DNA of 64,000 nt, from contig JAFWDK010000008.1 of assembly GCA_017513085.1 (NCBI GenBank), forward strand, positions 1 to 64,000, written 5' to 3'. Shown one piece after another: positions 32,357 through 47,309 of this stretch (position 1 is the stretch's first letter; the number at the start of each line of letters is the position of its first letter). A program made the position numbers and the translations under genes. Below the pieces are notes generated by a model. The model was not told where the DNA came from. It was given only the letters and a program-made list of their open reading frames with translations, and did not search any database. This DNA comes from Clostridiales bacterium (GTDB lineage: Bacteria; Bacillota; Clostridia; Saccharofermentanales; Saccharofermentanaceae).

Positions 32357-32432
32357 TGGTGCCCAGAGTCGGAATCGAACCAACGACACGGGGATTTTCA
32401 GTCCCCTGCTCTACCGACTGAGCTATCTGGGC
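32357..32432 (-). tRNA. tRNA-Phe(GAA)
   Basis: GCCCAGATAGCTCAGTCGGTAGAGC..CTGAAAA..GGTTCGATTCC..GGGCACCA. Confidence 0.98.
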
Positions 32433-32466
32433 AAATGATAATCGGTCCAAAATGGACCGATTATCT

Positions 32467-32543
32467 TGGCGACGCAGAAGGGGCTCGAACCCTCGACCTC
32501 CAGCGTGACAGGCTGGCATTCTAACCAACTGAACTACTGCGCC
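32467..32543 (-). tRNA. tRNA-Asp(GTC)
   Basis: GGCGCAGTAGTTCAGTTGGTTAGAATGCCAGCCTGTCACGCTGG..TTCGAGCCC..GCCA. Confidence 0.98.
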
Positions 32544-32547
32544 GTAA

Positions 32548-32623
32548 TGGTGGAAGATACAGGGCTCGAACCTGTGACCCTCTGCTTGTAAGGCAGATGC
32601 TCTCCCAGCTGAGCTAATCTTCC
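32548..32623 (-). tRNA. tRNA-Val(TAC)
   Basis: GGAAGATTAGCTCAGCTGGGAGAGCATCTGCCTTACAAGCAGA..GGTTCGAGCC..TTCCACCA. Confidence 0.98.
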
Positions 32624-42204: not shown

Positions 42205-43569
42205 TCAGCCGAAGCAATGCTTCTGCAGATACTCACTTATATTCGCGGAAAGAGGCTGTGTCGGCACAGATCCCAACGTCTGAACATTGGACAGGACAAT
42301 GATGATGTCCTCCGTCTCCCGGTTTACGAACACATTCGTGTTATATCCCAGCGTCATGCCGGAATGCTCAATACACGGTCCAATCACATAAAAACCGTAT
42401 CCGTATCCAAAAGCACCGCCGTCGAAGATCTTGTCCCAGCTTTCTTTCTTAAGCAGTTTTCCATCCAGAACAGCATATTCCCACTTCAGAAGGCCTTCCG
42501 CCGTTCCCGTCATCACGCCGACAGCATAGCTGATGCTTGGATCCTGTGAAGGAAAATCAAAATTCCAGAACAAAAGCGATGTTCTTCCCTTAGAAGTCAG
42601 ATGATCGATATCCGGATAAAGCTCCGTCAGATCAAGCGGTTCAAGGATGTTCTTTCTGATGTACTCATCATACTTCATACCGGTCAATCTCTCGATAATA
42701 ATACCGAGGAAATAGTAATTTGTATTGCAATACTTAAACTGCGTACCGGGAGTAAACTCCAGATCAAAATACGACATCTGCTCGATCAGCCAATCACCGG
42801 TGATCGGTTTGGTTACCACCGCACGGACCGTCTGTTCCAGAGCATCCAGCTTCGTAAAATCGATCTGGGAAAAATCCGTCATGGAAAAGCCCAGCGTCCC
42901 GGTCTCCAGATAATCCGAAATGCCGGAAGTCATATTCAAAAGCTGATGTATCGTGATCTCCTTGGCATGTGAATATTCCGGAATATACTTATCAAGCGTA
43001 TCCTCCGGCGAGATCAATCCCTGCTCCACGAGCTGCATGATTGCAACAGCCGTAAACTGTTTCGTGATAGAGCCCATCTCAAAAACCGTATCCATCTTAT
43101 TCGGGATCCCCTGCTCGCGATCCGCCAATCCGGACTCTTTCGTCCATACTACTTCCCGGTTCTGCGAAACGAGCGCTACGCCGTCAAACGTGATCCCGTT
43201 GAAATACTTTTCTGCCGTTCCTTTGTCAAAAGCACTGTCAGTATTCCCCGGTGCTGTGGTAGTTTCCGTGGTGGTTTCTTCGGATGTCAGCTCCGTGGTC
43301 TCCGATGTGCTTTCTTCCGTGGTGGTCTCTTCCGAAGTCGTCTCCTCGGTCGTTTCCTCCGTCGTATTCTCGGTGGTAGTCGCCTCTGTCGTTTCTGAAG
43401 TGGAAGTCTCTTCAGATGAAGATTCTTCAGTCGTAACCGATGTCTCTTCCGAAGTTTCACGTTCAGTCGTACGGCGCGTGGAACGCGTCTCTTCCTCATT
43501 CTTACTGCAAGATGCCATCAGAATGCTGAGAGAAAGGATTCCCGCCAGGATCTTCACTGATTTTTTCAT
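42205..43569 (-). CDS. Lipoprotein serine hydrolase (beta-lactamase class C / PBP fold) with Thr/Glu linker
   Basis: Lipobox LMASC; SITK (SxxK); YCN (YxN); HSG. Confidence 0.9.
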   Translation of the reverse strand: MKKSVKILAGILSLSILMASCSKNEEETRSTRRTTERETSEETSVTTEESSSEETSTSETTEATTTENTTEETTEETTSEETTTEESTSETTELTSEETTTETTTAPGNTDSAFDKGTAEKYFNGITFDGVALVSQNREVVWTKESGLADREQGIPNKMDTVFEMGSITKQFTAVAIMQLVEQGLISPEDTLDKYIPEYSHAKEITIHQLLNMTSGISDYLETGTLGFSMTDFSQIDFTKLDALEQTVRAVVTKPITGDWLIEQMSYFDLEFTPGTQFKYCNTNYYFLGIIIERLTGMKYDEYIRKNILEPLDLTELYPDIDHLTSKGRTSLLFWNFDFPSQDPSISYAVGVMTGTAEGLLKWEYAVLDGKLLKKESWDKIFDGGAFGYGYGFYVIGPCIEHSGMTLGYNTNVFVNRETEDIIIVLSNVQTLGSVPTQPLSANISEYLQKHCFG

Positions 43570-44236: not shown

Positions 44237-45199
44237 ATGCCGATCATTACCATTTCCCGTCAGATGGGCAGCCTCGGCGACGAAGTCGCACAAGCTCTTT
44301 CCAGTAAGCTTGGCTGGGAATTGATCACAAGAGACCTTCTTATGGAGCGGTTCTTTCCGGACAGCAATCCGGAGCAAAGGCAAAGTCTTGCAGAGAGCGC
44401 GAAATTCTATTTATCCGAATACAAAGACGGTAAGACTTTCCGAGAAGTACTGGAGTCCTCTCTTCTTGATCTGGCGCAGCATCAATCTGCAGTACTGCTC
44501 GGATTCGGTTCCCAGATCTTCTTTTCAGACTATGACAGCGCCATCAACGTCCGCATCGTCGCGCCGAATGACGTCCGTCTCAGCAGGATACAAAGACAGT
44601 TTCACATGACCGAACAAGCCGCGCAAGCGCTTTTGGAATCAACGGACAGAAAACACAAGCGTTTTGTCTCGCACGTATTCTCTGCTGATTCTTCCGATGT
44701 GTCACTTTATCACCTTGTCCTGAATACTGCCTATCTTTCCGTAGACGAATGTGTGGCAGCGATCCTTGCTACCCACAACGAGCATGCGCTCCGTGTCCGT
44801 ATCAAGGATGAAACCAAAAGAGAGGGCGCGTACGATCACCAGAAAGATCTTCCTGTTTTTAAGAATCCTTCTGAAGCCGAATTTGCGCGCATTCTCGACA
44901 TGTACCATATTGACTGGAAATATGAACCGAAGACCTTCCCGGTAGAGTGGGACAGCGAAGGCAATGTAACCCTGGCGTTCAGTCCGGATTTCTATCTGAC
45001 AAGATTTGACACCTATCTGGAACTGACCACCATGGATCAGAAATATGTTACGAAGAAAAACAAAAAGCTGAAGAAAGTCCGCGAACTCTATCCCGGCACA
45101 CACATTAAGATCGTTTACAAGAAAGATTTTCTGGAATTGGTGGAACGTCTGAAGAGTTTTGACGCACCGCCTGCCGCATCCGACGATAACGAAAAGTAA
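44237..45199 (+). CDS. Cytidylate-kinase-like (Cytidylate_kin2) domain fused to a C-terminal PD-(D/E)XK-like domain
   Basis: ITISRQMGSLG, YHLVLNT; then SEAEFARILD..YEPKTF..PDFYL..YLELTT. Confidence 0.8.
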   Translation: MPIITISRQMGSLGDEVAQALSSKLGWELITRDLLMERFFPDSNPEQRQSLAESAKFYLSEYKDGKTFREVLESSLLDLAQHQSAVLLGFGSQIFFSDYDSAINVRIVAPNDVRLSRIQRQFHMTEQAAQALLESTDRKHKRFVSHVFSADSSDVSLYHLVLNTAYLSVDECVAAILATHNEHALRVRIKDETKREGAYDHQKDLPVFKNPSEAEFARILDMYHIDWKYEPKTFPVEWDSEGNVTLAFSPDFYLTRFDTYLELTTMDQKYVTKKNKKLKKVRELYPGTHIKIVYKKDFLELVERLKSFDAPPAASDDNEK

Positions 45200-45211
45200 G
45201 AGAGGACTACT

Positions 45212-45742
45212 ATGGAGCAGATCACATATAAGAAGATCCTTTATACCCAGGAACAGCTCGCCAGGCGTATCGCCGAACTGGGCAAGACCATCACTTCCGA
45301 TTATCAGGGTGAAGAACTCGTTCTTCTCGGTGTACTGAAAGGTTCTCTCTACTTCTTCACGGACCTGACCCGCGCGATCGATCTTCCTATCGAACTGGAC
45401 ATGCTGGCTGTCGGTAATATCCCTGATACGACCAGCACGACCGGAATCGTACGGATCACCAAAGATGTCGATATCAACATTACCGGCAAACATGTCATTG
45501 TAGTGGAGGACATCATCCGTACCGGGCTGACTACCGCTTACCTGCTCCAGACGCTGGAAGCCAGAAGACCGGCGTCTTTGGAAGTCTGCACATTGCTTTA
45601 TAATCCGGATAGACAACTCATTGATCTTCCTGTCAAATATTTCGGCTTCGAGATCGACCGGAGCTGGTTGATCGGATACGGCATGGATGCTTCGGAAAAA
45701 GGAAGGAATCTCCCCTTCATTGCCGAACTGGAACACAAATAA
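45212..45742 (+). CDS. Hypoxanthine phosphoribosyltransferase-like protein with divergent active site
   Basis: GVLKGS, VIVVEDIIRTGLT, IGYGMD, RNLPFI. Confidence 0.85.
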   Translation: MEQITYKKILYTQEQLARRIAELGKTITSDYQGEELVLLGVLKGSLYFFTDLTRAIDLPIELDMLAVGNIPDTTSTTGIVRITKDVDINITGKHVIVVEDIIRTGLTTAYLLQTLEARRPASLEVCTLLYNPDRQLIDLPVKYFGFEIDRSWLIGYGMDASEKGRNLPFIAELEHK

Positions 45743-45760
45743 ATCTATTTCCCTAATAGC

Positions 45761-45791
45761 AAAAGGTGGTCTCATAATGAAACCACCTTTT
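45761..45791. terminator. Bidirectional terminator shared by the HPRT-like operon and the large ncRNA
   Basis: AAAAGGTGGTCTCAT-A-ATGAAACCACCTTTT. Confidence 0.85.
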
Positions 45792-45816
45792 ATATAAAGC
45801 CTGAGGACAAATTAAA

Positions 45817-46407
45817 AGCTCCAGCGAACCAATCTCACTTCCAATTCCTACGGCCACCCTTTATTATCTGCGAACCTTCAAGATCCTGCTCAACCTGTCT
45901 TCGCGGAATTACTCACCACATGAAGCTGTGCCTTTCCAACCGACCCGAACCCGAAATGTTGTCGTCTCCGAAACCACCCTTTCCATTACCTCTGCTGCAT
46001 CTGCCTGAACTGATTGCCCCATGCTACCAATCCGGTCTCCGATCCAGTTTTTGCAACTTACTCAGTTATGGTCCGTCTCCTACCATCTCTTCGTAATCTC
46101 GACTCCCCGCTTGCTGATTCCCATCATCATCGGTTCATCTAAATCAAGGTTCCAACCTGACCCGCGACTTGTGTCCGCCCTCGCGTACCGTCAATCGCTG
46201 TCCGCTCTCCACTGCTTGCTACTATGGCTCAAACGGTTCCGGTTTTTGCTGTTCCTATTCGATCTCACCGGATCGCCTTCAAAAACGCATCCACCATCGT
46301 TTCCTGACCACTCTCTGGTCTTTCTGTTTTTTTCAACCTCGCCTTGTGTATTCATCAGTGGCGGTTCTCCGTTTGGGAAATGGTGTTAACTCGTATTCCC
46401 TGGAGCT
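45817..46407 (-). ncRNA. Large (~591 nt) structured non-coding RNA candidate (ROOL-sized; family unconfirmed)
   Basis: Own promoter with predicted +1 at 46407; 5' AGCUCCAG pairs with 3' CUGGAGCU followed by UUU; many nested hairpins; purine-rich; no same-strand ORF of 60 aa or more. Confidence 0.78.
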
Positions 46408-46413
46408 AATTTA

Positions 46414-46441
46414 AGTATAGCACGCAATAAACGTATGTCAA
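46414..46441 (-). promoter_or_regulatory. Sigma-A promoter driving the ncRNA
   Basis: TTGACA-16nt-TATACT with extended TGn. Confidence 0.82.
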
Positions 46442-46742
46442 CACCTTCCACCGCGAAATGCGCAAACTTTTTTATTTCGTTGTGCAACATGCACAAAACG
46501 ATACGTGCTGTTTTTGAAAAGCACCCTTGCATCTTTCAAACTGCGCTACCATCACGGTTTGCGGCTTTCCCTCCATCTTATCTTACCGGTTCACAGCAAG
46601 TGCTTCTGTATCCGTACTACAAAAAAAGTGCGACGATTGTTTACTTTTCGGTCATAATTCCCCACTGTTTCTAACAATACTGTCACTTGGTTTTTCTCAA
46701 AAATCCGTTATAATTGTTTTAGTTTAGCATTGGGAGTGTTGT

Positions 46743-47309
46743 ATGAAAGTCAAGCTTTTAAAACTCAATCGTGGTCTGATCCTTCTGATCATCGCAATCA
46801 TCGGCGTGCTGATCTACTTAACTGCCGAGACAATTGATGCCAACAAGAAAAAACAAGAAGTTCGCACTCTTGCTTCTGAGATCATCACGAAAACACAGGA
46901 GTGTATCGTAATCGTTAGCGACATTGACGACGTCATGAATTCACGCACTTTTATCTATCACAATAATTCTGACTTTAATGAAAACAAAGAGAATAATTAT
47001 TCCAATATTGACATACTGAAACCCTATCTTTACCAGGACGATCGTTTGTACCAGGAAATTTCAGAACTTGGCAATGATCTTTCTACAAGCGCATTTGTAA
47101 ATGATAATGTGATCATTAAGAGTCTGGTTTCCAGAATTCCCTACGAAACCAGCGTCATGTATTACAACAACACTGCCAAAGTTACGATACGCGTGAATAA
47201 TGAATATATATCCGCTGATAATACCCAGAATAGTATGACGTCTACCGACGAGCTCGGCTTTGAGTATATAGACGACAGATGGCAACTGGTCAGTTATGAG
47301 ATTTATTGA
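46743..47309 (+). CDS. Membrane-anchored hypothetical protein, first gene of an ABC-2 operon
   Basis: N-terminal TM, AT-rich; GGGAG RBS and upstream TATAAT. Confidence 0.75.
   Translation: MKVKLLKLNRGLILLIIAIIGVLIYLTAETIDANKKKQEVRTLASEIITKTQECIVIVSDIDDVMNSRTFIYHNNSDFNENKENNYSNIDILKPYLYQDDRLYQEISELGNDLSTSAFVNDNVIIKSLVSRIPYETSVMYYNNTAKVTIRVNNEYISADNTQNSMTSTDELGFEYIDDRWQLVSYEIY

What the first reader, a model, noticed from the sequence alone, without database searches (positions are those of the whole stretch)
45817..46441. Unannotated ~591-nt self-contained, highly structured RNA gene (ROOL-sized or a new large ncRNA class)
Seen: a minus-strand promoter, TTGACA (46441-46436)-16nt-TGnTATACT (-10 at 46419-46414), puts +1 at 46407. 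That is exactly the first base of AGCUCCAG, which pairs with CUGGAGCU at 45824-45817, followed by a U-run and a bidirectional terminator (45761-45791). Between the ends lie nested helices (+ strand coordinates): 46380-46385 with 46292-46297, enclosing a hairpin at 46306-46320; hairpins at 46260-46275, 46163-46185, 46144-46160, 46068-46086, 46055-46067, 45941-45964 and 45917-45930; 45905-45910 with 45843-45848, enclosing 45900-45904 with 45870-45874. AAAGGGUGG occurs twice. The transcribed strand is strongly G/A-rich and has no ORF of 60 aa or more. Known: it lacks tmRNA, RNase P and SRP signatures and the ispA/oapA context of OLE RNA. Its size matches ROOL (about 580 nt, first described from rumen metagenomes), which is often near tRNAs or prophages. 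Inference: a stand-alone chromosomal large ncRNA, either a ROOL-like member in an atypical context or an undescribed class.
Basis: partly seen in the sequence, partly recalled or inferred. Interest (0 to 1): 0.92.

Follow-up and report, generated by a model that had tools for sequence, protein, structure and literature searches.

The report
New abundant structured RNA gene family
This is a real, highly transcribed, roughly 600-base structured non-coding RNA gene from a family found in no RNA database, and it travels with two unusual nucleotide-enzyme-like proteins that may be its partners.

Summary
The finding holds. Window 45801-46407 (minus strand) is a stand-alone ncRNA gene. It has a near-consensus promoter, and a closing helix (P1) formed by the first and last bases, followed by a U-run.

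- **Not a known family:** Rfam 15 gives no hit, including ROOL, OLE, GOLLD, HEARO and raiA.
- **Conservation:** homologues occur in 23 of 23 sampled genomes of the genus.
- **Structure:** it is supported by covariation (31 of 102 pairs compensatory; shuffles average 14.9).
- **Not coding:** the antisense ORF is broken in all 23 relatives.
- **Expression:** rumen metatranscriptome contigs from two studies cover exactly this unit.
- **Family:** it spans 254-805 nt with nearly invariant ends. It is found in at least 116 of 300 genomes of the order Saccharofermentanales. It is rare elsewhere and absent from the viral contigs examined.

The RNA usually lies beside a two-gene operon. One gene ("ck2") encodes a CMP-kinase-like protein with a nuclease-like C-domain. 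The other ("Hpt2") is a paralogue of hypoxanthine phosphoribosyltransferase, changed at two positions that are invariant in the housekeeping copies. Genera lacking ck2 lack the RNA.

My best reading is a trans-acting RNA partner of these proteins (about 0.4). Function is untested.

The parts
45801..46407 (-). The ncRNA gene (about 601-607 nt from the transcript start to the U-rich tail)
   Evidence: The start is set by the promoter. Homology to relatives begins at the -10 box and ends near 45802. Metatranscriptome contigs of 593 nt (45801-46393) and 591 nt (45806-46396) come from two studies.
46414..46441 (-). Promoter: -35 TTGACA, 16-nt spacer, extended -10 TG-n-TATACT
   Evidence: 11 of 12 positions plus TG. 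Both boxes are conserved over a variable spacer in 24 of 24 genus sequences, and in most loci of other families.
46480..46496 (.). Palindrome TTGTGCA-n3-TGCACAA upstream of the promoter; possible regulator site
   Evidence: The pattern TGTGCA-n(0-6)-TGCACA occurs only twice in the 3.06-Mb genome. A TGTGCA or TGCACA hexamer lies at -150 to -36 in 49 of 58 homologous loci, against 0 of 58 in a same-length control inside the RNA.
46395..46407 (-). P1, 5' strand (AGCUCCAGGGAAU)
   Evidence: Compensatory changes across families are shown.
45817..45829 (-). P1, 3' strand (GUUCGCUGGAGCU)
45801..45816 (-). U-rich 3' tail directly after P1 (UUUAAUUUGUCCUCAG); likely end of the RNA
   Evidence: A U-run follows P1 in all families. 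RNA contigs stop at 45801 and 45806, which is only a weak hint. UUUGUCCUCA is conserved in the genus.
46209..46365 (-). 5' strand of P3 (46363-46365, pairs with 45856-45858), and the peripheral 5' domain closed by 46358-46361 with 46209-46212. The domain includes hairpins at 46306-46320 and 46260-46275.
   Evidence: In minimal forms a single hairpin replaces this domain.
46164..46205 (-). Most conserved core: 5' strand of P5 (46200-46205, pairs with 45870-45875) and hairpin P6 (46164-46198)
   Evidence: The core pattern recovered 33 stretches in 185,579 species genomes.
45972..46162 (-). 5' strand of P7 (46154-46162, pairs with 45882-45890) and a variable middle domain (helices within 45972-46073)
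   Evidence: The middle domain is missing in three genus members (L020, L021, L023) and shortened in two (L018, L019).
45851..45946 (-). 3' domain: hairpin P8 (45905-45946), the 3' strands of P7, P5 and P3, and the conserved single strand GCAGAUAAUAAAGGG
45761..45791 (.). Hairpin terminator between the RNA gene and the convergent hpt2
   Evidence: Sequence. One search aligns it to terminator-type sRNA models. Hairpins of different sequence sit at the same place in relatives.
45212..45742 (+). hpt2: a paralogue of hypoxanthine phosphoribosyltransferase, convergent with the RNA
   Evidence: Pfam Pribosyltran. TIGR01203 scores 164.6 bits, against 217.8 for the housekeeping copy on contig C15. It is changed at two positions that are invariant in the housekeeping copies.
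44237..45199 (+). ck2: a 320-aa protein with a Cytidylate_kin2 N-domain and a very conserved C-domain of nuclease-like type
   Evidence: It co-occurs with the RNA.

Best explanation
This is a stand-alone gene for an abundant, highly structured non-coding RNA. It is the long (about 600 nt) form of a family not found in Rfam or in the papers searched.

**Shown**
- A sigma-70-type promoter starts transcription at A46407.
- The first 13 and last 13 bases form an almost invariant closing helix, P1, which is followed directly by a U-run.
- Inside P1, nested long-range helices (P3, P5, P7) and two conserved hairpins (P4, P6) carry peripheral domains. These domains differ greatly in size between lineages.

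**Inferred**
- P1 plus the U-run works as the terminator.
- P1 also hides both ends of the RNA from exonucleases, which would explain its abundance.
- The RNA acts in trans as the RNA partner (scaffold, ligand or substrate) of the two proteins encoded beside it. These are Hpt2, a phosphoribosyltransferase-fold protein changed at two positions that housekeeping Hpt keeps, and ck2, a CMP-kinase-like protein with a nuclease-like domain. P1 would serve as the conserved protein handle.

**Odds**
- That it is a real new ncRNA family: about 0.95.
- That it works with ck2 and/or Hpt2: about 0.4.
For: **It is an RNA gene**
- The promoter is conserved over a variable spacer.
- 23 of 23 genus genomes carry it at 70-92% identity, and similarity stops at the transcript ends.
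- In the genus alignment, 96.1% of cells pair, against 26-48% when partners are slid. 31 pairs show two-sided change, against a shuffle mean of 14.9 (0 of 500 shuffles reach 31) and 8-14 when slid.
- Across five families, 15 of 26 pairs show two-sided change, against a shuffle mean of 6.9 (0 of 500).
- P1 has compensatory changes at pairs 2, 5, 6, 7 and 8 in separate lineages.
- A 257-nt homologue folds into the same nesting on energy alone, with z = -4.17 and 0 of 200 shuffles folding as well.
- It is not coding.
- RNA contigs of 593 and 591 nt from two studies match the unit. In a third run its depth is 228, against 4.7 for the neighbouring gene.

**It is new**
- No Rfam hit.
- RNase P, SRP RNA, tmRNA and a 6S-like RNA lie elsewhere in the genome.
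- No paper was found.

**Link to the proteins**
- hpt2 is adjacent in 46 of the 62 RNA copies whose flanks were clustered. At least three gene arrangements occur.
- In the class sample, full-length ck2 occurs outside the order in only 6 of 383 scored genomes. In all 4 of those with enough DNA, the RNA lies next to it.
- Of 14 ck2 loci that I inspected for an RNA, 12 have one nearby.
- Nine genera without ck2 (0 of 39 genomes) also have 0 of 39 RNA hits. Within genera g24 and g29 the same genomes carry both.
- Genomes without ck2 keep a classical hpt-ftsH context (with tilS in two of the three loci annotated) and have no RNA motif nearby.
- The window's own genome also has tilS-hpt-ftsH, so hpt2 is an extra paralogue.
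- All 20 ck2-linked copies have R or N where all 6 housekeeping copies have D, and N or S where they have K.
- Two sister species without ck2 carry an RNA with a degraded P1, and at least one of them (L022) is no longer beside hpt2.
Against: - No binding or function was tested.
- In my hand tally, 10 genomes have the RNA but no ck2 at E <= 1e-30. Three of them are 93-100% complete, were re-checked at E <= 0.001, and have an apparently canonical RNA 5' end. For one (G137) the intact P1 was seen directly. So ck2 is not needed to keep P1.
- In the large genus g2, only 8 of 24 genomes with both sets of coordinates have the RNA within about 3 kb of ck2. One ck2-hpt2 locus has no RNA within 1.5 kb.
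- Some genomes carry extra or tandem RNA copies away from the operon.
- Related genomes are not independent, so shared descent could explain much of the co-occurrence.
- Assignment of the ck2 C-domain to a nuclease fold rests on weak sequence matches only.
- The roles of the two changed Hpt residues are recalled, not tested.
- Contigs cannot fix RNA ends or levels.
Confidence: 0.45

Rival explanations
1. An orphan trans-acting housekeeping or regulatory RNA, in the manner of raiA or 6S. Its partners are encoded elsewhere, and its place beside ck2-hpt2 is inherited position with no shared function.
For: - The RNA exists without ck2 in some near-complete genomes.
- Adjacency is lost in most of genus g2.
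- Extra and tandem copies lie elsewhere.
- Hfq is present in the genome. A terminal stem followed by a U-tail is the usual Hfq-binding module (recalled).
Against: - Adjacency survives at least three different gene arrangements and is seen in seven families.
- The RNA and ck2 are missing together in nine genera.
- The neighbour is a dedicated paralogue, not the housekeeping hpt.
Confidence: 0.3
2. An RNA-only assembly: the RNA forms homo-oligomers, as shown by cryo-EM for ROOL, GOLLD and OLE, and the proteins are incidental.
For: It is a large, ornate, abundant RNA with long-range helices. There is precedent in PMC12286853, of which I saw the abstract only.
Against: - Nothing here tests oligomerisation.
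- Family members shrink to 254 nt with only the shell kept.
- There is no homology to those RNAs.
- There is no phage or tRNA context.
Confidence: 0.1
3. A divergent member of ROOL or another known large RNA family (OLE, GOLLD, HEARO, raiA).
For: The size of the genus form (about 600 nt) and its rumen origin resemble ROOL. A conserved closing P1 with variable peripheral stems resembles raiA.
Against: - No Rfam family reaches its threshold in the window or in 20 homologous loci.
- Nothing but terminator-like hits and weak chance-level matches appears at E <= 10.
- The raiA and ROOL models find nothing in the genome at E <= 10.
- One genome has both raiA and this RNA.
Confidence: 0.03
4. A cis-acting element of hpt2: an antisense or convergent-transcription regulator, or a leader.
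For: It is convergent with hpt2 and shares a terminator region. In one genus it lies upstream of hpt2 on the same strand.
Against: - The mature RNA appears to end before the shared hairpin.
- A terminator separates the RNA from hpt2 in the co-oriented case.
- Orientation varies, and many copies are unlinked.
- The conserved complex fold and high abundance do not fit a simple antisense RNA.
Confidence: 0.05
5. A protein-coding gene (the 122-aa ORF on the + strand, 46021-46389) or a mobile element with inverted ends.
For: The ORF exists in the window. The two ends are inverted repeats, and some genomes have 2-4 copies.
Against: - The ORF is broken in 23 of 23 relatives.
- Gap runs are mostly not multiples of 3 (387 of length 1 mod 3, 76 of length 2 mod 3, 18 of length 0 mod 3).
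- There is no codon periodicity: 75, 68 and 70 variable columns out of 123 in each phase.
- There is a single copy in this genome, at a syntenic position with a fixed promoter.
Confidence: 0.01

Closest known systems
raiA motif RNA (Rfam RF03072)
   Same: An abundant trans-acting structured ncRNA of Bacillota. It has a highly conserved closing stem P1 formed by the 5' and 3' ends, a conserved core, and peripheral stems that vary in number (PMC12968392; sections 4 and 16 read). Function is unknown in both.
   Different: - No match to the raiA model.
- The P1 sequence and bulges differ.
- This family reaches 805 nt.
- One genome holds both RNAs.
- raiA is reported to bind KhpA/KhpB. This RNA instead travels with ck2 and Hpt2.
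ROOL RNA (RF03087)
   Same: Size of the genus form (about 600 nt, against a mean of 581 nt), rumen origin, and many junctions (PMC5737381; passages read).
   Different: - No model match.
- ROOL lies near tRNAs and in prophages. This RNA lies beside ck2-hpt2, and 0 of 36 viral-contig motif hits are real.
- This family has long invariant ends, whereas ROOL has only 10 highly conserved nucleotides.
OLE RNA with its Oap proteins
   Same: A large ornate RNA of anaerobic Bacillota whose gene sits beside genes for its protein partners (recalled). If the partnership reading is right, this is the closest organisational analogue.
   Different: No OLE model match. The neighbours are a kinase/nuclease-like protein and a PRTase paralogue, not membrane proteins of the Oap type (recalled).
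PyrR and its RNA binding loop
   Same: PyrR is a phosphoribosyltransferase-fold protein that binds a specific RNA hairpin (review passage read, PMC4347634). NCBIfam names it a bifunctional regulator/uracil PRTase. This is a precedent for Hpt2 binding P1. The recalled PyrR site (ARUCCAGAGAGGYU) resembles the RNA's 5' end, CUCCAGGGAAU.
   Different: - PyrR acts in cis on mRNA leaders.
- No match to the PyrR site model appeared among all Rfam families at E <= 10.
- Hpt2 belongs to the Hpt family, not the PyrR family.
- The motif resemblance is recalled, not tested.
6S RNA, and Y-like RNA with Rsr
   Same: Abundant RNAs whose paired 5' and 3' ends form the key conserved stem. Y-like RNA genes sit beside the gene of their protein partner (recalled).
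   Different: A 6S-like RNA lies elsewhere in this genome (44 bits). No Rfam match of either kind occurs here. I did not search for an Rsr gene.

Membership tests
ROOL (RF03087) | Match to the Rfam covariance model at or above its gathering score | tested here: not met
   No hit in the window, none at E <= 10 in 45600-46750, and none in the whole genome at E <= 10. The control for rang in no genome, so that search alone is weak.
ROOL (RF03087) | Frequent location near tRNAs or in prophages (PMC5737381) | tested here: not met
   The neighbours are ck2-hpt2 and, in the genus, an ABC transporter operon. None of 36 viral-contig motif hits has the promoter or the 3' end. The nearest tRNAs are 13 kb away.
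ROOL (RF03087) | [quoted passage not shown] | not tested
   Only nested helices were derived. Pseudoknots were not searched for.
OLE (RF01071), GOLLD (RF01998), HEARO (RF02033) | Match to the Rfam covariance model | tested here: not met
   All 4227 Rfam 15 families were scanned. The only matches at gathering score are three tRNAs elsewhere. Nothing real appears at E <= 10, and there are no hits in 20 homologous loci. The accession numbers are recalled.
raiA motif (RF03072) | Match to the Rfam covariance model | tested here: not met
   No match in the genome at E <= 10. 1 of 60 relatives has raiA (G027), at another place, and G027 also has this RNA.
raiA motif (RF03072) | P1 made of P1a, P1b and P1c, with conserved GU and GGU bulges (PMC12968392) | tested here: not met
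   Here P1 is 8 pairs, a G-G mismatch, then 4 pairs. No such bulges are present.
RNase P, SRP RNA, tmRNA, 6S | Being the genome's copy of the universal RNA | tested here: not met
   RNase P type A is at C19 (269.6 bits). SRP RNA is at C24 (91.8 bits). tmRNA is on another contig. A 6S-like RNA is at C14 (44 bits, just below its cut-off).
Hypoxanthine phosphoribosyltransferase (TIGR01203), for the neighbour Hpt2 | Score over the family cut-off, and the residues that housekeeping copies keep | tested here: inconclusive
   Hpt2 scores 164.6 bits against a cut-off of 150, and the housekeeping copy scores 217.8. But 20 of 20 ck2-linked copies lack the D of EDI[IV]D[TS]G and the K of DKP, both kept in 6 of 6 housekeeping copies. 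The catalytic roles of these residues are recalled.
PD-(D/E)XK nucleases (Phage_endo_I, DUF790), for the ck2 C-domain | Significant sequence or fold match | tested here: inconclusive
   - DUF790 matches 20 of 27 members (best E 6.8e-5). Phage_endo_I matches 7 of 27 (best E 4.1e-5). The first member's DUF790 score (19 bits) is below the cut-off (28.8); I did not see scores for the others.
- The PDB chain 3cae, Endonuclease I, matches at E = 1.1.
- The model (pLDDT 80-88 in this domain) shows a helix, five strands, a helix, a strand and a helix.
- The fold search was dominated by the N-domain kinases, so the C-domain fold was not tested on its own.

The most novel reading that the evidence does not exclude
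A previously unseen three-part ribonucleoprotein of an order of gut and rumen Clostridia. It would consist of an abundant structured RNA, whose invariant terminal helix is the handle; a catalytically altered Hpt paralogue recruited as an RNA-binding subunit, as PyrR was from uracil PRTase; and a CMP-kinase-like protein with a nuclease-like domain. Together they might sense or control purine-nucleotide status. The RNA interior is purine-rich in every subfamily although its sequence is not conserved, so it could even be a regulated substrate.
Probability: 0.35. Interest if true: 0.9.

Novelty: categorically new. Interest (0 to 1): 0.86.

Why it matters
- **Rarity.** Large, complex-folded bacterial ncRNAs are few, and each one found (RNase P, OLE, ROOL, GOLLD, raiA) has opened new biochemistry or structural biology.
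- **Abundance.** This RNA is abundant enough to assemble as a full-length contig from metatranscriptomes of under 200 million letters.
- **Spread.** It is conserved across an order of fibre-degrading rumen, gut and digester bacteria.
- **A natural deletion series.** The family runs from 254 to 805 nt around a fixed shell, which suits structural work.
- **A testable lead.** Unlike most orphan RNAs, it comes with two candidate protein partners. One looks like a metabolic enzyme turned into something else, so the question of function can be tested directly.
- **An annotation point.** The second "hpt" in these genomes is probably not a plain hypoxanthine phosphoribosyltransferase.

Tried and rejected
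- **CsrA sponge:** rejected, because no CsrA gene was found in the 99.4%-complete genome.
- **Replacement of raiA:** raiA is missing from nearly the whole order (1 of 60), so its absence says nothing.
- **Divergent RNase P, SRP RNA, tmRNA or 6S:** all are found elsewhere.
- **TilS replacement by ck2:** rejected, because tilS-hpt-ftsH is present in the same genome.
- **Phage link:** 0 of 36 viral-contig hits are real.
- **Narrow model R1:** the covariance model of the 3' domain found only 41 of 142 family genomes, because the interior diverges quickly. I replaced it with end-motif patterns.
- **False positives of the bare 5' 14-mer.**
  - Of 16 GCTCCGGGG hits fetched, 15 have neither promoter nor 3' end; five share a protein-coding context.
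  - Of 12 hits outside the order, 11 are chance matches.
  - I therefore give the promoter-anchored count instead: 120 of 300, with one hit of the reversed control pattern. I set aside hits in four genomes as that coding motif; one of these genomes (G137) also has a real copy.
- **ck2 start region:** I saw no obvious complementarity between it and the RNA tail.
- **Complex prediction of ck2 with Hpt2:** no verdict (score 0.26, mark 0.32). This counts neither for nor against binding.
- **Fold search of the ck2 model:** it returned only kinase-fold chains for the N-domain. The C-domain was not folded on its own for lack of calls.
- **Not seen:** The supplementary list of 224 motifs in PMC5737381 could in principle hold this RNA, although as I recall those motifs are in Rfam, which was scanned.
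- **Hand counts:** the 2x2 tally of RNA against ck2 was made by hand from the tables and may be off by a few.
Full report
**1. The observation**

The minus strand of window 45760-46450 carries a near-consensus promoter: TTGACA, a 16-nt spacer, then TG-n-TATACT. It matches 11 of 12 positions. This places the transcript start at A46407.

The first bases, AGCUCCAGGGAAU, pair with GUUCGCUGGAGCU at 45829-45817. A U-rich run and then a hairpin at 45761-45791 follow.

The strand is 63% purine. Its longest ORFs are 54 and 48 aa.

Single-sequence folding is unremarkable: z = -1.78, and 2 of 20 shuffles fold as well. Energy alone would therefore not have carried the claim.

**2. Conservation and structure**

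The stretch is single-copy in its 3.06-Mb genome.
- All 23 sampled genomes of the genus have it. Most are full length at 70-92% identity.
- Similarity starts at the -10 or -35 box and stops near 45802.
- In the 24-sequence alignment the -35 and -10 boxes are kept while the spacer varies. A terminator hairpin of different sequence follows the RNA in most of the 24 sequences.

RNAalifold gives 102 pairs. The covariation counts are:

| Measure | Observed | Shuffled partners | Slid partners |
|---|---|---|---|
| Cells paired | 96.1% | 91.8% | 26-48% |
| Pairs with two-sided change | 31 | mean 14.9 (0 of 500 reach 31) | 8-14 |

The fold is a set of nested long-range helices.

| Helix | Window coordinates |
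|---|---|
| P1 | 46407-46395 with 45829-45817 |
| P3 | 46365-46363 with 45858-45856 |
| P5 | 46205-46200 with 45875-45870 |
| P7 | 46162-46154 with 45890-45882 |
| P4 domain (branch) | 46361-46209 |
| P6 hairpin (branch, most conserved) | 46198-46164 |
| Middle domain (variable) | 46073-45972 |
| P8 | 45946-45905 |

The other seven are not in it.

**3. It is not coding**

The 122-aa ORF on the opposite strand is broken in 23 of 23 relatives.
- The length of that region varies modulo 3.
- Gap runs are mostly not multiples of three (387, 76 and 18 for lengths 1, 2 and 0 modulo 3).
- Variable columns show no codon phase: 75, 68 and 70 of 123 in each phase.

**4. It is expressed**

Fifteen RNA runs from at least seven studies of sheep and bovine gut metatranscriptomes hold the stretch. 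I laid four runs from four studies.
- A 593-nt contig covers exactly 45801-46393.
- A 591-nt contig covers 45806-46396.
- A 519-nt contig has depth 228. The only flanking contig, in the neighbouring gene, has depth 4.7.
- The flanks are otherwise uncovered.

Contigs cannot prove RNA ends or levels. These libraries could also hold DNA. Still, the match to the predicted unit in separate studies is what an abundant, discrete RNA would give.

**5. It is not a known RNA**

- Rfam 15 (4227 families) finds only three tRNAs, 13 kb away, at gathering scores.
- Nothing but terminator-like hits and weak chance-level matches appears at E <= 10 in the region.
- Nothing is found in 20 homologous loci.
- The ROOL and raiA models find nothing in the genome at E <= 10.
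- RNase P RNA, SRP RNA, tmRNA and a 6S-like RNA lie elsewhere.
- Four literature searches found no description. The text of the 224-motif paper mentions no hpt- or cytidylate-linked motif. I could not see its supplements.

**6. The family**

In other genera and families the same gene appears with the same layout. A TTGACA/TATAAT promoter is followed 6-7 nt later by AGCUCCAGGGAAUAC. The RNA ends with GGUUCGCUGGAGC and a U-run.
- I collected 62 distinct RNAs of 254 to 805 nt.
- The interior is conserved only within the Saccharofermentanaceae. In other families it is A-rich and unalignable, but the ends are nearly invariant.
- A 257-nt form folds by energy alone into the same P1/P3/P4/P5/P6/P7 nesting (z = -4.17; 0 of 200 shuffles).
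- Thirteen minimal forms from five families share P1, P4 and P6. Of 26 pairs, 15 show two-sided change, against a shuffle mean of 6.9 (0 of 500) and 2-7 when slid.
- P1 itself shows compensatory changes at pairs 2, 5, 6, 7 and 8 in separate lineages.

**7. Distribution**

The promoter-anchored 5' pattern occurs in 120 of 300 genomes of the order. By family the counts are f1 75/141, f4 6/65, f2 18/39 and f3 20/54. The reversed control pattern hits once. I set aside hits in four genomes as a coding motif; one of these genomes also has a real copy.

This count is a floor. Eight genomes that the exact pattern missed turned out to have RNAs with variant ends.

| Collection searched | Result |
|---|---|
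| Class sample outside the order | 1 of 12 hits examined is real |
| Viral contigs | 0 of 36 hits are real |
| Metagenome contigs | 4 of the 80 loci held carry the full RNA |

The order is Saccharofermentanales, judged from the taxonomy of one named record. The named MAG records come from rumen, omasum, horse gut and digesters.

**8. The neighbours**

Downstream and convergent lies a two-gene operon.

*ck2 (44237-45199, 320 aa).*
- It has a Cytidylate_kin2 N-domain.
- Its C-domain of about 100 aa is almost invariant across families.
- That C-domain gives only weak matches to PD-(D/E)XK nucleases. DUF790 matches 20 of 27 members, Phage_endo_I matches 7 of 27, and PDB chain 3cae matches at E = 1.1.
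- Its predicted secondary structure is compatible with that fold.

*The second gene scores as hypoxanthine phosphoribosyltransferase.*
- The same genome also has the classical tilS-hpt-ftsH operon on contig C15. The window's copy is therefore a paralogue, which I call Hpt2. It is 42.5% identical to the housekeeping copy.
- All 6 housekeeping copies have EDI[IV]D[TS]G and DKP. All 20 ck2-linked copies have R (17) or N (3) in place of that D. They have N (18) or S (2) in place of the K. Three also lose the E of ED.
- As I recall, these are the catalytic base and the 6-oxopurine-binding lysine. That is recalled, not tested.
- TIGR01203 scores 164.6 bits for Hpt2 and 217.8 for the housekeeping copy, with a cut-off of 150.

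**9. Linkage of the RNA to the operon**

*For the link:*
- hpt2 is adjacent in 46 of the 62 RNA copies whose flanks I clustered.
- The arrangements differ. There is ck2>hpt2> <RNA in most loci, RNA>terminator>hpt2> in one genus, and <hpt2<ck2 RNA> in families f26 and f57.
- In a 400-genome class sample, full-length ck2 outside the order occurs in only six genomes. In all four with enough DNA, the RNA is next to it.
- Of 14 ck2 loci inspected for an RNA, 12 have one nearby.
- In the order, ck2 is in 219 of 300 genomes.
- The nine listed genera without ck2 (0 of 39 genomes) have 0 of 39 RNA hits. In genera g24 and g29 exactly the same genomes carry both.
- Five ck2-less genomes all keep an hpt, have no RNA motif nearby, and show hpt-ftsH context in the three loci annotated, with tilS upstream in two.
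- Two sister species of the genus lack ck2 even at E <= 0.001. In them P1 has decayed while the interior stays about 70% identical, and at least one (L022) no longer lies beside hpt2.

*Against the link:*

My hand tally of the tables is:

| | ck2 present | ck2 absent |
|---|---|---|
| RNA present | 106 | 10 |
| RNA absent by pattern | 113 | 71 |

- Three of the ten RNA-only genomes are 93-100% complete. Re-checking shows no full-length ck2, and G137 at least has an intact P1.
- In genus g2, only 8 of 24 genomes have the canonical RNA within about 3 kb of ck2.
- Related genomes are not independent.

**10. How it most likely works**

*Shown:* a strongly promoted, abundant, structured RNA whose two ends are locked in an invariant helix followed by a U-run.

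*Inferred:*
- P1 plus the U-run acts as the terminator and shields both ends from exonucleases.
- P1 is the recognition handle for a protein.
- The partners are Hpt2 and/or ck2, which would make a dedicated ribonucleoprotein. The precedent is PyrR, a PRTase-fold protein that binds a specific RNA hairpin.
- The purine-rich interior and the nucleotide-enzyme ancestry of both proteins suggest a role in purine-nucleotide sensing or control. That is speculation.

I put the RNA gene and its novelty at about 0.95, and the partnership at about 0.4.

The main rival (about 0.3) is an orphan trans-acting RNA whose position beside the operon is inherited only. RNA-only assembly, a cis role on hpt2, membership of a known family, coding and mobile-element readings are all less likely. 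The reasons are given under the rival explanations.

**11. Also noted**

A TGTGCA or TGCACA element lies upstream of the promoter in 49 of 58 loci, against 0 of 58 in controls. In the window it forms a palindrome that is nearly unique in the genome. This points to a dedicated regulator.

**Verdict**

This is a new RNA family with an unusually concrete lead to its function.

Noticed in passing
window 46480-46496; homologous loci L025-L136: A palindrome TTGTGCA-n3-TGCACAA lies about 40-55 bp upstream of the -35 box. The pattern TGTGCA-n(0-6)-TGCACA occurs only twice in the genome (the other is at C19:10110). A TGTGCA/TGCACA hexamer lies upstream in 49 of 58 loci, against 0 of 58 in controls. It is probably a regulator binding site. 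The regulator is unknown.
   Followed up: partly
window 45212-45742 versus G000 contig C15:28087-28623 (L231): The genome has two hpt genes. The one in the tilS-hpt-ftsH operon keeps EDIIDSG and DKP. The one in the window has EDIIRTG and YNP. Annotation pipelines would name both hypoxanthine phosphoribosyltransferase (164.6 and 217.8 bits).
   Followed up: yes
window 44237-45199: ck2: the C-terminal 100 residues are almost invariant from family f1 to f57, whereas the kinase-like N-domain is only 40-60% identical. The usual lysine of the (D/E)xK motif appears to be a threonine (E262-L-T264). The motif reading is recalled.
   Followed up: partly
G039:C1:1396796 and 1397296; G051:C6:34494 and 35075; G234:C297:1969 and 2615; G042:C85:19964 and 20659: Tandem pairs of RNA genes lie 500-700 nt apart. 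In the pairs examined, each copy has its own promoter, and the two copies of a pair differ in interior and length (for example 312 and 404 nt).
   Followed up: partly
L022 (G014) and L024 (G006): Two sister species of the genus lack ck2. Their RNA starts AGCUCAAGAGAAU and has lost the canonical 3' strand of P1, with only a 5-bp GCUCA/UGAGC pairing possible. In L022 at least, a co-oriented gene lies downstream instead of a convergent hpt2.
   Followed up: partly
G027:C47:2205-2366 (L106): This is the only raiA motif RNA found among 60 relatives (140.7 bits). The same genome also carries the new RNA.
   Followed up: no
window 32360-32623: A cluster of three tRNA genes on the minus strand (67-71 bits).
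   Followed up: no
window 42205-43569 (-): A beta-lactamase-family protein (PF00144, E 6e-53) with a long N-terminal linker rich in Thr, Glu and Ser after a lipoprotein-like signal. It is probably a surface-tethered serine hydrolase or penicillin-binding-type protein.
   Followed up: no
G000 contig C14:156218-156391: A 6S-like RNA candidate scores 44 bits, just under the Rfam gathering score of 46.4.
   Followed up: no
g2 loci L150, L152, L154, L156, L159, L160: The 14-mer GCTCCGGGGAATAC recurs inside a conserved protein-coding context (...CAGAA[AT]GCTCCGGGGAATAC[AT]CCCTT...). This is a source of false positives for motif searches for this RNA.
   Followed up: partly
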